In this document: positions 48,001 to 51,000 of the stretch, piece by piece
Position numbering within the stretch: the stretch's first letter is position 1
How the letters are laid out: each line of letters opens with the position of its first letter
Assembly: GCF_055900595.2 (NCBI RefSeq)
Contig: NZ_CM148325.1
Strand: one strand, 5' to 3'
DNA: 64,000 bases
Position numbers: made by a program

Positions 48001-51000
48001 AATACCGCCGTTGTTATCGTGACCGAGATGGCCGCCCTGAATGCTGAGACGGGCGCTGTTATTTTCACCGTTTACACCGGTCTGATGGCTGCGGGAGCCT
48101 GCCAGAATCCGGTCATAGTCCATTGCCTGTGTCAGCATGGAGGCATACAGGGGGACTTCTGCACGATAAGCATTTTCACTGCGCAGATACCAGCTCTCAT
48201 CACTGTCCCGGTTGAGGGAGTAGTTAAAGGCACCGGCCTGCAGCTTATTCCCCTGGATAAAGGCCCCTTCCTCCGTGGTGGCACCGTTAATGGCTTCCAC
48301 CACCTGAATACCCTTACCGCTGGTCGCCAGCCCCGACGCACTGTTGCCGGCGTTCACCAGGTTCAGGATGGTTTTTCCGGTTGCCCTGCCACCGTCAATG
48401 ACCAGTCTGTCAGCATTGTTCTGTGCCATATCCGGGCGTACACGCAGGCTGATGGTGCCATTCTGTCCGTTCAGGTTTTTCACTTTCAGGGTTGCCGGTA
48501 CGAACTTCCCTGTGCGGGTGGAGGTGAAATGAATCTGTCCGGCATGGCTGAGGTCATCCACCACCGACTGCACCGTGGCGTTATCGGGAATATTCCAGGT
48601 GGCACCAGAGGCGAGAGTGACATTCGTGGGGTCAATGGCACCGTTCAGCACAGTGCTGCCGGTCAGCTTCAGGGCTGTACCGCGCTGAGCGATGACATCC
48701 GTGGTGACGGTACTGTCGTTCAGCGTCAGCGTGCCTTCATTCAGGTTGACGGCTTTCTGGGTGAGTGTGGTGTTGCTGACAGTGAGTGTGCCACTTCCTG
48801 ATTTTTCCACGCTGCCGTTACCGGTGAGAGAGCCTCCCTGCAGGAGTGCATCGCCTTCACGGATGGTCAGGGTATCGTTGTTCACCGTCTTCCCGGAAAG
48901 GGTAAGTATGGCGCCGTTATTCAGCGTGGTGGTGCCCGCCAGTGTGCCGCCCCTGGCGGTGAACAGTCCGCCATTTACCGTGGTATCCGTGGCCGTATCA
49001 CCGGCGTTCAGCGTGAATGAACTGCCTTTTTCCAGCATCAGGGCATCCGCCTGACCGCCTCCGATACTGAATGCCTTTCCGTCGCTCCGGGTACCACTGA
49101 CAGCGGCACCGGAATCGGCCAGCAGTACACCGCCATTTCCCATGGATACGGTGGTGGCGGTGCCACCGTTGCGGACATCCAGCGTTCCGCCATCATCCAC
49201 GCGGGTATTAGTGGCTGTGTGTCCGCTCAGCACATCCAGACGTCCGCCATTTTCCAGTACGACATTATCAGCCTTACCCGCCACAACGGAGAATGCTCCC
49301 AGGCGGTTTGTGCCGGTGACGGTTGCAGCTGTACTGGTAACCAGTGCACCGCCCGTGTTCTGGGTGACATCAGACGCTTCTCCGCCGGCATGAACCTTCA
49401 GCTCGCCGTTCTGATTTATGGTGGTGTTACCGGCAGTACCACCTGCCTTAACAACCTGCCAGCCCCCCTCGTTAATTACCGTGTTCAGCGCAAGTCCGTA
49501 TTTGTGCACATACTGGTTTCCTCCCTCCAGCCGGGTGTTATGTGCCTCTCCGTGTACCGTCTGGTCACCGCCGGCGTAAATGAGGGTGTCCCGTGCCATC
49601 CCCGAAGACCAGATAACCTGCCGGCCATTTTTATTGATGGTGGTGGATTCAGCCGTCCCTCCGACCATCTGACCGCTGGACACATTTTCAGACTCCGGAC
49701 CACCTTCTGCACCGGTGTTGACGATGGTTCCGGTTGCCTGCCCGCCATGTTTAATGGTCTGGTAGCCAGACTGGTTAATCACCGTTCCGGATGCACTGCC
49801 GCCTGCATGTATCCATTGTTCACCACCGTTAAGGACAGTACCGTAAGCCTGCCCGCGCAGATTCTGTCCTCCACCGGCACTGATAACCGTATCCGTGGCA
49901 CTGCCACCTGCCATGACATCCTGCAGACCGTTTGCGGTGACCGTGGTGTTTCTGGCAGTGCCACCCCGGGCTATCTGCTGACCGCCGGTGTTGTCATCAG
50001 AGTCCGGCCCCAGCTCAAGCCCGGTACTGACAGTCACGCCATCAGCTGTTCCGGATACAAACTGGTTGTCATGGTTTACCAGTGTTCCGCCATTCACTGT
50101 TTCACCCGGGTGCACAACGATGTCAGCAGCCAGCACCGGGAGTGACGTGACTGCGGCAAGAGACAGTGCAACCGCCACACCGCCACGTTTACCCCGTGCG
50201 CGGGCCAGTTCGGAGGCAACCACGAAAGCGCCCGTAATGTGATTCCATACCAGCCTGTAGCAGGTATTCAGATGTCGTTTCATCAGCATTTCCTTAATCA
50301 GAGTGAGGGTGAATAAAAAAGCCGGTATCCACAGATGTGGATACCGGCAGGTAAAGGATTACAGTGCCGGAGGTCCGGCTGACGGAAGTTTCTGACGTGT
50401 GGCTCTGTTGTTCCCTGAATCTCATGTCTGTGTGTATCTGCGCACGTTGCTAACAGGAGTTATTATTAGCATGACGATCGATATAAACGATCGATAAAAT
50501 AAGTATCGATCGTTTTATTCTATTATCAGGCTATTGCACGGACAAGAGAGACAGTAACGAAAACAGCGCTTTTGTGAGCAGACTCAGAGGCAGGGAGGAC
50601 ATCATCCACAACAGGTTCAGAAGAAGATCCAGTTCCATACCGCGCGGGCAACAGAGACCACGGTGTCACGAACAGCGCGCAGGGCCGTACGGACAACAGA
50701 GGCAACACAGACGCTCTCCGCTGTGTCAAATATCCGGTCCACCGCACCGGTAAACTGCTCACGGGCCTGAGCGCGGACAGATTCCGTGCGCAGCTCGTCC
50801 TGCAGGCGGGTCATCAGGGGACTGGCGGCATGGTCGGGAAGCGCTGTCATGAGCGCACTGACCAGCGTATCCACTTCCCAGCCGGTGCGGGCCGATACGG
50901 CCACAACCGGATGTACAGGCCGGAACAGACGGAATACCGCCTCCGTTTTTTCGCGAATGTTCTGTGCCTGTGCGGGAGAGGGCTGAATGCCGGCCATATC

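What the first reader, a model, noticed from the sequence alone, without database searches (positions are those of the whole stretch)
50290..50616. Intact Ag43 (flu) phase-variation switch with three GATC sites
Three GATC sites spaced over ~35 bp lie in the flu leader, about 190-220 bp upstream of the start codon. This matches the known Dam-methylation/OxyR epigenetic switch, so this Ag43 copy is probably phase-variable. A strong hairpin (gccggtatccaca/tgtggataccggc, 50316-50345) also lies in the leader.
Basis: partly seen in the sequence, partly recalled or inferred. Interest (0 to 1): 0.3.

Follow-up and report, generated by a model that had tools for sequence, protein, structure and literature searches.

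The report
Ordinary Ag43 phase-variation switch, intact
This is the well-known Dam-methylation/OxyR on-off switch in front of the E. coli adhesin gene agn43 (flu), intact by sequence, and the "strong hairpin" is the known transcription terminator of its leader RNA (IsrC), so the finding is correct but ordinary.

Summary
Three GATC sites (50476, 50489, 50508) span 36 bp, 193-228 nt upstream of the true start codon (50283, minus strand) of an intact 1039-aa Ag43 gene. A GATC triad is not rare by itself: the window has three, and simulations give about 1.1. The OxyR consensus match is also weak (13/20). The decisive evidence is homology. The region aligns without gaps to the characterised K-12 agn43 switch and to CFT073 agn43a, with an identical -35/-10 promoter, all three GATCs in the same columns, and the same 19/13-bp spacing. 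In 88 independently ascertained leaders, 81 keep the triad.

It is a 12-bp stem (true coordinates 50321-50348, -24 kcal/mol) followed by U6. This is the intrinsic terminator ending the IsrC/IS102 leader RNA (Rfam 250 bits, full length), a known second control point (attenuation).

Two minor allele differences from K-12 were seen. One OxyR half-site has CTAT changed to TTAT. The K-12 in-frame upstream start codon is replaced by a separate leader ORF that stops on the ribosome-binding site.

Verdict: interpretation supported, already known, low interest. Actual phase variation in this strain is inferred, not shown.

The parts
47164..50283 (-). agn43/flu coding sequence, 1039 aa, intact. It is an Ag43a-like allele.
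   Evidence: ORF. Pfam ESPR + AIDA repeats + AC_1 + Autotransporter beta-domain. 89% identical with no gaps to K-12 Flu, and 94% to CFT073 Ag43a. Best solved structure is 4kh3, Antigen 43. PGAP calls the identical locus in strain 118UI 'autotransporter adhesin Ag43'.
50291..50295 (-). Shine-Dalgarno AAGGA, 7 nt upstream of ATG 50283
   Evidence: Read directly from the sequence. Conserved in K-12 and CFT073.
50315..50348 (-). Intrinsic (Rho-independent) terminator. Stem 50348-50337 / 50332-50321, loop 50336-50333, U-run 50320-50315. It is the 3' end of the IsrC-type leader RNA and the attenuator in front of agn43.
   Evidence: Terminator scan. Fold -24.1 kcal/mol, z = -7.7. It is the last helix of Rfam IS102. 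The K-12 isrC annotation ends at the equivalent U-run. The stem is intact in 89 of the 91 leaders tabulated (one has a shorter T5 run), and the only common change is U-A to U.G. [quoted passage not shown]
50308..50513 (-). Full-length match to Rfam RF00124 IS102 (IsrC): the agn43 leader RNA
   Evidence: cmscan 250 bits against a gathering score of 46, E = 4e-49, model positions 1-206 of 206. It is the only copy in the window.
50294..50425 (-). Leader ORF of 43 codons (ATG 50425 to TAA 50296-50294). It reads through the terminator hairpin and stops on the SD. It replaces the K-12 in-frame upstream start. Function not established.
   Evidence: Its presence is not beyond chance.
50476..50479 (.). 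GATC-III (third in the direction of transcription)
   Evidence: Same column as in K-12 and CFT073.
50489..50492 (.). GATC-II
50508..50511 (.). GATC-I. It contains the position equivalent to the annotated 5' end of K-12 isrC (G at 50511), which is the inferred transcription start.
   Evidence: 13/20 specified positions here against 14/20 in K-12 in the same register. The difference is CTAT to TTAT at position 12 of the first half-site. Binding itself was not tested.
50517..50545 (-). Sigma-70 promoter: -35 TTGTCC (50545-50540), 17-nt spacer, -10 TAGAAT (50522-50517)
   Evidence: Promoter scan. Identical in K-12 and CFT073. Nearly invariant in 31 haplotypes.
50617..51489 (-). Upstream neighbour: an intact YeeP-like GTPase gene (K-12 yeeP is a pseudogene). 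Its stop codon bounds the regulatory region.
   Evidence: Pfam MMR_HSR1. PGAP 'GTPase family protein' at the identical locus.

Best explanation
The region 50290-50616 (minus strand) is the regulatory region and leader of an intact agn43 (flu) gene. It lies in an ExPEC island next to the kps capsule genes and is the positional counterpart of CFT073 agn43a. It carries two stacked, previously described control devices.

(1) An epigenetic ON/OFF switch. A sigma-70 promoter (-35 at 50545, -10 at 50522) fires at about 50511. The first ~38 nt of the transcribed region hold three GATC sites inside a binding site for reduced OxyR. If OxyR sits there, it blocks transcription and shields the GATCs from Dam (OFF). 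If Dam methylates them first after replication, OxyR cannot bind and the gene is transcribed (ON). Both states are inherited and flip at roughly 1 in 1000 per generation.

(2) A leader attenuator. Transcripts run into a strong intrinsic terminator (50348-50315), 31 nt before the start codon. Terminated transcripts are the ~197-nt IsrC/IS102 RNA, and only read-through transcripts encode Ag43.

Shown here: the sequence anatomy, homology to the characterised K-12 locus, conservation across alleles, and gene integrity. Inferred from the K-12 literature: OxyR binding, differential methylation, switching, and antitermination.
For: Gapless alignment of the switch with K-12 and CFT073 agn43a. Promoter hexamers are identical, and the three GATCs fall in the same columns with 19/13-bp spacing.

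Same OxyR-consensus register: 13/20 here against 14/20 in K-12.

Rfam IS102/IsrC full-length match at 250 bits.

Terminator: 12 bp + U6, -24.1 kcal/mol, z = -7.7.

The gene is intact and of the Ag43 family.

100% identical loci are annotated agn43 in complete E. coli genomes, and the region occurs in 4472 of 5426 genomes. The locus is syntenic with CFT073 PAI-pheV agn43a and with strain 118UI at 99-99.7% over 33 kb.

In 88 leaders found through a 23-mer about 130 nt away from the triad, 81 keep all three GATCs with invariant spacing.

The mechanism is as described in the held literature. Leader attenuation and antitermination appear.
Against: Nothing here tests function.

The GATC triad alone is within chance expectation, and the OxyR consensus match is weak and non-specific.

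This allele departs from K-12 at a consensus-specified position of the first OxyR half-site (CTAT to TTAT) and just after GATC-I and GATC-III. The exact 76-nt haplotype occurs in only 38 of 5426 complete genomes. OxyR affinity, and hence switching bias, could therefore differ.

dam and oxyR are not in the window.

The primary papers on the footprint and on the leader (Wallecha 2002, 2014; Haagmans 2000) could not be read here.
Confidence: 0.9

Rival explanations
1. The switch is present by homology but functionally shifted in this allele. The CTAT to TTAT change in the first OxyR half-site, together with the changes flanking GATC-I and GATC-III, would alter OxyR affinity. The locus would then be biased ON (weaker OxyR) or biased OFF (the perfect 12-bp dyad between GATC-I and GATC-II favouring OxyR), rather than switching as in K-12.
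For: One fewer consensus match than K-12 or the common ACCTAT alleles. The haplotype is a minority one, in 38 of 5426 genomes. [quoted passage not shown]
Against: All three GATCs, their spacing and the second, stronger half-site (8/10) are unchanged. Positions between the GATCs vary naturally among alleles, including CFT073 agn43a. The haplotype persists in dozens of clinical isolates with an intact gene.
Confidence: 0.12
2. The transcription unit is mainly a stand-alone small RNA gene (IsrC). The GATC/OxyR switch would govern the sRNA, and Ag43 would be made from it only incidentally or from another promoter.
For: The Rfam family is typed 'Gene; sRNA', and K-12 annotates isrC as an ncRNA ending at the terminator. 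The terminator is strong.
Against: The held literature treats IsrC as the flu leader and attenuator, with flu expressed by antitermination. No other promoter-like site lies between the terminator and the start codon, only 31 nt apart. Classical genetics ties Dam and OxyR to Ag43 protein phase variation.
Confidence: 0.05
3. The three GATCs are a chance cluster in an AT-rich intergenic region, with no regulatory meaning.
For: Triads within 36 bp are expected about 1.1 times per window, and two others exist at 35162 and 62407.
Against: Column-for-column identity with the experimentally characterised K-12 switch. 81 of 88 independently ascertained alleles keep all three sites at fixed spacing.
Confidence: 0.01

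Closest known systems
E. coli K-12 agn43 (flu, b2000) regulatory region with isrC (b4435), CP4-44 prophage
   Same: The promoter hexamers are identical. There are three GATCs at the same positions and the same 19/13 spacing. The OxyR-consensus register is the same. The IsrC leader and terminator are the same (12-bp stem + U6). The SD and start codon are the same. The region is 91% identical overall.
   Different: A to G just after GATC-I makes a perfect 12-bp dyad with GATC-II. ATCTAT becomes ACTTAT, losing one consensus position. GATAAG becomes GTCATG after GATC-III. Three indels lengthen the leader by 6 nt. The K-12 upstream ATG that is in frame with flu is absent, and a separate 43-codon leader ORF stops on the SD instead. 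The upstream GTPase gene is intact here but a pseudogene (yeeP) in K-12. The genomic context is a kps-adjacent island rather than CP4-44.
UPEC CFT073 agn43a (c3655, PAI-pheV); structure of its passenger domain is PDB 4KH3
   Same: It is the positional orthologue. The gene order is the same: YfjI - GTPase - agn43 - 838-aa protein - IrmA ... CbtA/YeeU ... kpsF. The leader length class, terminator variant and separate leader ORF are the same. The protein is 94% identical.
   Different: CFT073a has ACCTAT, TACCGATC and GTTAAT variants in the spacers between the GATCs. CFT073 carries IS66-family insertions downstream of agn43 that are absent here. The N-terminal passenger region is mosaic.
Salmonella gtr and opvAB Dam/OxyR phase-variation switches
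   Same: GATC sites embedded in OxyR half-sites. Methylation and OxyR binding are mutually exclusive. ON/OFF states are heritable.
   Different: Those systems have four GATCs in two pairs, three or four half-sites and alternative OxyR positions, and OxyR can act as activator. Here, as in agn43, a single OxyR site overlaps the transcription start and only represses.
pap-family Dam/Lrp switches
   Same: Epigenetic phase variation by competition between Dam and a DNA-binding regulator at GATC sites.
   Different: A different regulator (Lrp/PapI) and two GATC boxes 102 bp apart. There is no sequence similarity.

Membership tests
agn43-type Dam/OxyR phase-variation switch | Three GATC sites with the K-12 spacing at or just downstream of the transcription start | tested here: met
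   GATCs at 50508, 50489 and 50476. Spacing is 19 and 13 bp, the same columns as K-12 and CFT073a and the same as in 81 of 88 sampled alleles.
agn43-type Dam/OxyR phase-variation switch | Sigma-70 promoter immediately upstream, so that the OxyR site overlaps the -10/+1 region | tested here: met
   TTGTCC-17-TAGAAT at 50545-50517, identical to K-12. The K-12 isrC 5' end maps to G 50511 inside GATC-I.
agn43-type Dam/OxyR phase-variation switch | OxyR binding-site consensus (ATAGnTnnnAnCTAT-N7-ATAGnTnnnAnCTAT) covering the GATCs | tested here: inconclusive
   13/20 at 50513-50477 against 14/20 in K-12 in the same register. No match at 3 or fewer mismatches. 66 window positions score 13 or better, so the consensus neither proves nor disproves a site. 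Homology to the K-12 site is the stronger argument.
agn43-type Dam/OxyR phase-variation switch | OxyR binds unmethylated but not methylated DNA. The GATCs are unmethylated in OFF cells and methylated in ON cells. Switching is heritable and reversible. | not testable with these tools
   Needs EMSA or footprinting, methylation profiling and reporter assays. Known for K-12.
agn43-type Dam/OxyR phase-variation switch | Host encodes Dam and OxyR | not tested
   Neither gene lies in the window. Both are core E. coli genes (established knowledge). The window is 99-100% identical to E. coli chromosomes.
agn43-type Dam/OxyR phase-variation switch | Controls an intact Ag43 autotransporter gene | tested here: met
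   1039-aa ORF with no frameshift. ESPR, AIDA, AC_1 and Autotransporter domains. 89% identical to K-12 Flu.
Rfam RF00124 IS102 (IsrC) RNA | Score at or above the curated gathering threshold over the full model | tested here: met
   250 bits against 46, model positions 1-206 of 206, not truncated.
Intrinsic (Rho-independent) terminator | Stable GC-rich stem-loop directly followed by a U-run on the transcribed strand | tested here: met
   12 bp (8 G-C pairs), 4-nt loop, U6. -24.1 kcal/mol, and no shuffle of 200 folds as well. Termination activity itself was not tested.
Ag43 / self-associating autotransporter (SAAT), Ag43a-like | Type Va architecture: extended signal peptide, beta-helical passenger with AIDA repeats, autochaperone, beta-barrel translocator | tested here: met
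   Pfam ESPR 6-49, AIDA x5, AC_1 573-690, Autotransporter 764-1015. Closest solved passenger is 4kh3. The C3 class assignment rests on similarity to Ag43a; no phylogeny was made.

The most novel reading that the evidence does not exclude
The allele-specific differences matter. The TTAT half-site variant, together with the perfect GATC-I/GATC-II dyad, would change OxyR affinity and so the ON/OFF bias. The leader also works differently from K-12. K-12 has an upstream start codon in frame with agn43. This allele class (49 of 88 sampled leaders) instead has a separate ORF that is translated through the terminator and stops on the Shine-Dalgarno sequence. That would couple antitermination and reinitiation in a way not described for K-12.
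Probability: 0.1. Interest if true: 0.3.

Novelty: already known. Interest (0 to 1): 0.1.

Why it matters
It matters little beyond annotation. The result confirms that this ExPEC island copy of agn43 (the Ag43a-type adhesin, linked in the literature to aggregation, biofilm and bladder persistence) has everything needed for epigenetic ON/OFF expression. Any phenotyping or transcriptomics of such strains must therefore allow for mixed ON/OFF populations (the point made in PMC3764049).

It also corrects the reading of the hairpin. The hairpin is a second, known control point (the IsrC terminator/attenuator), not an unexplained structure.

The only mildly useful by-product is a survey of natural variation. 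About 8% of sampled alleles have lost one GATC, and there are two classes of leader ORF architecture.

Tried and rejected
1. GATC triad as statistical evidence: rejected. There are three triads within 36 bp in the window against 1.14 expected.

2. Strict OxyR consensus search: no hit at 3 or fewer mismatches. Scoring shows the K-12 site itself reaches only 14/20, and AT-rich coding DNA in the window reaches 14-15/20. The consensus is therefore a poor discriminator.

3. GATC columns more conserved than the other columns of the region from about -16 to +42: the trend is there (0.58 against 2.48 variant haplotypes per column) but it is not significant (Mann-Whitney p = 0.13).

4. A conserved leader ORF across the terminator as a sign of selection for translation-coupled antitermination: 87 of 88 leaders have one, in different frames and from different ATGs. 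However, 65-70% of dinucleotide shuffles of the leader do too, because the hairpin is open in all three frames. Not supported as evidence.

5. The terminator-like site on the + strand (50485-50515) and the promoter-like site on the + strand (50471-50500): these are by-products of the dyad symmetry and AT-richness of the OxyR site, not separate features.

6. Reading the primary papers (Wallecha 2002 and 2014, Kaminska 2010, Ulett 2007): not held. Statements about the OxyR footprint limits and about two in-frame start codons in the K-12 leader rest on my recollection of those papers. They are partly corroborated.

7. Species-representative genome scan for the leader 23-mer: the only hit is a contaminated Collinsella MAG contig, so it says nothing about taxonomic range.

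Full report
**What is at the coordinates**

The interval 50290-50616 is the intergenic region between two minus-strand genes. Upstream is an intact YeeP-like GTPase gene (50617-51489; Pfam MMR_HSR1; PGAP 'GTPase family protein' at a 100% identical locus). Downstream is a 1039-aa autotransporter gene (47164-50283).

The ORF lister starts the autotransporter gene at ATG 50289. The true start is ATG 50283. That start gives MKRHLNT..., identical to K-12 Flu. It is the start PGAP uses, and it sits 7 nt after the AAGGA Shine-Dalgarno.

The protein has the full Ag43 architecture: ESPR signal peptide, five AIDA repeats, AC_1 autochaperone and an autotransporter beta-domain. It is 89% identical without gaps to K-12 Flu and 94% identical to CFT073 Ag43a. 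Its best hit among solved structures is 4kh3. 'Intact Ag43' is therefore correct.

**Check of the observation**

GATC occurs at 50476, 50489 and 50508. The span is 36 bp, and the sites lie 193-228 nt upstream of ATG 50283.

The hairpin exists, but it lies at 50321-50348, not 50316-50345.

The triad is not statistically remarkable by itself. The window contains three GATC triads within 36 bp. The other two are at 35162, inside kpsF by synteny, and at 62407, in a transposase pseudogene. First-order Markov simulations give 1.14 triads per window, and 65% of simulations have at least one.

**What it is**

A direct alignment with K-12 MG1655 (yeeP-isrC-flu) and with CFT073 agn43a settles the identity:
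- The -35 TTGTCC and -10 TAGAAT hexamers, with a 17-nt spacer, are identical. They are the only sense-strand promoter-like site in the region.
- The three GATCs fall in the same alignment columns, spaced 19 and 13 bp.
- The annotated 5' end of K-12 isrC maps to G 50511, inside GATC-I.

The GATCs therefore occupy roughly +1 to +36 of the transcript, overlapping the start site.

The 37-nt OxyR consensus of Toledano et al. fits best in the same register in both sequences. It scores 13/20 here (50513-50477) and 14/20 in K-12.

That test is weak. No site in the window matches with 3 or fewer mismatches, and 66 positions score 13/20 or better. I rest the OxyR-site assignment on homology with the characterised K-12 site, not on the consensus.

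**Population check**

I looked for leaders through an exact 23-mer (CAGCCGGACCTCCGGCACTGTAA). It lies about 130 nt from the triad, so the sampling does not depend on the state of the GATCs.

The metagenome scan returned 87 stretches. Together with the window and the reference loci, 88 leaders could be scored. Of these, 81 keep all three GATCs with invariant spacing, and 7 have lost one site.

In complete E. coli genomes:
- The 471-nt region occurs in 4472 of 5426 genomes, with a median of 2 copies per genome that has any.
- It is at least 99% identical in 115 records.
- The exact 76-nt switch haplotype occurs in 38 genomes.

**The hairpin**

On the transcribed (minus) strand the hairpin is GCCGGUAUCCAC-AUCU-GUGGAUACCGGC followed by UUUUUU. 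That is 12 bp with 8 G-C pairs. The free energy is -24.1 kcal/mol, z = -7.7, and none of 200 shuffles folds as well. This is a textbook intrinsic terminator, ending 31 nt before the start codon.

The stretch 50513-50308 is a complete match to Rfam RF00124 IS102, the IsrC RNA (250 bits against a gathering score of 46, E = 4e-49). The K-12 isrC annotation ends at the equivalent U-run.

Across the 91 leaders tabulated, the stem is intact in 89. The two common forms differ in the loop and by a one-sided U-A to U.G change.

The held literature calls IsrC the 'flu gene attenuation' RNA. [quoted passage not shown] 2014.

**How it most likely works**

The mechanism has two layers.

First layer, the epigenetic switch. 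Reduced OxyR bound over the unmethylated GATCs blocks transcription from the overlapping promoter and keeps Dam away (OFF). Dam methylation of the GATCs after replication excludes OxyR (ON). Both states are heritable and flip at about 1e-3 per generation. This is described.

Second layer, the attenuator. Most transcripts stop at the leader terminator and yield the ~197-nt IsrC-type RNA. Only read-through transcripts make Ag43.

Shown here: the anatomy, the homology, the conservation and the integrity of the gene. Inferred from K-12 work: binding, methylation states, switching and antitermination.

**Differences from K-12**

Switch:
- A G follows GATC-I, which makes a perfect 12-bp inverted repeat AAACGATCGATA/TATCGATCGTTT with GATC-II.
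- ACTTAT replaces ATCTAT, losing consensus position 12 of half-site 1. The commoner ACCTAT alleles keep that position.
- GTCATG replaces GATAAG after GATC-III.

These changes might shift OxyR affinity. I give that rival 0.12.

Leader:
- K-12 has an ATG at +69 in frame with flu, running through the terminator. This agrees with my recollection of Wallecha 2014, which reports two in-frame start codons.
- The window and CFT073a have in-frame stops at that position.
- They carry instead a separate 43-codon ORF (ATG 50425 to TAA 50296-50294) that crosses the hairpin and stops on the SD.
- Of 88 leaders, 38 have the fusion architecture and 49 the separate one.

I tested whether an ORF across the terminator is more than chance. 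It is not: 65-70% of shuffled leaders have one.

**Context**

Window 30428-64000 is 99.0-99.7% identical to E. coli 118UI. The gene order is YfjI - GTPase - agn43 - 838-aa protein - IrmA - ... - CbtA/YeeU - kpsF. This matches CFT073 PAI-pheV around agn43a, except that CFT073 has IS66 insertions. Only one agn43 leader lies in the window.

**Verdict**

The feature is the already known agn43 Dam/OxyR switch plus the known IsrC leader terminator, in a minority but unremarkable natural allele. Interest is low.

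Noticed in passing
window 50294-50425 (minus strand); K-12 locus L001:1884-2039: The leader ORF architecture differs between allele classes. K-12 has an upstream ATG in frame with flu, giving a 52-codon extension through the terminator. This allele and CFT073 agn43a instead have a separate 43-codon ORF that crosses the terminator and stops (TAA) on the Shine-Dalgarno. Among 88 sampled leaders, 38 are 'fusion' and 49 'separate'. The presence of such an ORF is not beyond chance (65-70% of shuffles).
   Followed up: yes
L091 (JAIJJM010000521.1, 'MAG: Collinsella sp.'), 1-2300: This was the only hit in the species-representative genome collection. It is a 2.3-kb contig binned as the actinobacterium Collinsella. 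It is 93% identical to E. coli DNA: window 49865-50920 (agn43 5' end, leader, GTPase) joined to window 38730-39985. This is almost certainly binning contamination. Its GATC-III reads GATA.
   Followed up: partly
L014, L087, L028 (GATC-II lost); L041, L068 (GATC-I is GATG); L032, L091 (GATC-III lost): Seven of 88 sampled agn43 leaders carry a point mutation in one of the three GATCs. These are natural candidates for altered or locked switching. I did not check whether their agn43 genes are intact.
   Followed up: no
window 35162-35197 and 62407-62422: Two other GATC triads within 36 bp. The first lies inside kpsF and the second in a transposase pseudogene, by synteny with strain 118UI. There is no promoter context, and the count is consistent with chance.
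   Followed up: partly
window 26888-27030 (+) and 13996-14034 (+): Rfam gathering-level matches to isrN (123.7 bits, an Hfq-binding island sRNA) and to a JUMPstart element (58.5 bits, an ops-containing leader typical of capsule/LPS operons, probably the kps region 3 promoter).
   Followed up: no
window 50617-51489 (minus strand): The GTPase gene upstream of agn43 is intact here (290-303 aa, MMR_HSR1 domain), whereas its K-12 counterpart yeeP is a pseudogene. Its stop codon is only 72 nt from the agn43 -35 hexamer, so read-through transcription into the switch is conceivable.
   Followed up: no
window 44527-47049 (minus strand): The 840-aa ORF directly downstream of agn43 has no Pfam match at E <= 0.001. 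It is annotated 'hypothetical protein' in 118UI and CFT073, and it is conserved in position in both islands.
   Followed up: no
window 50284-50320 (minus strand): In the MFE fold of the whole leader, the terminator's U-run and following bases pair with the AAGGAAA Shine-Dalgarno region. This weak helix could mask the ribosome-binding site in read-through transcripts. It was seen in one fold only and was not tested.
   Followed up: no
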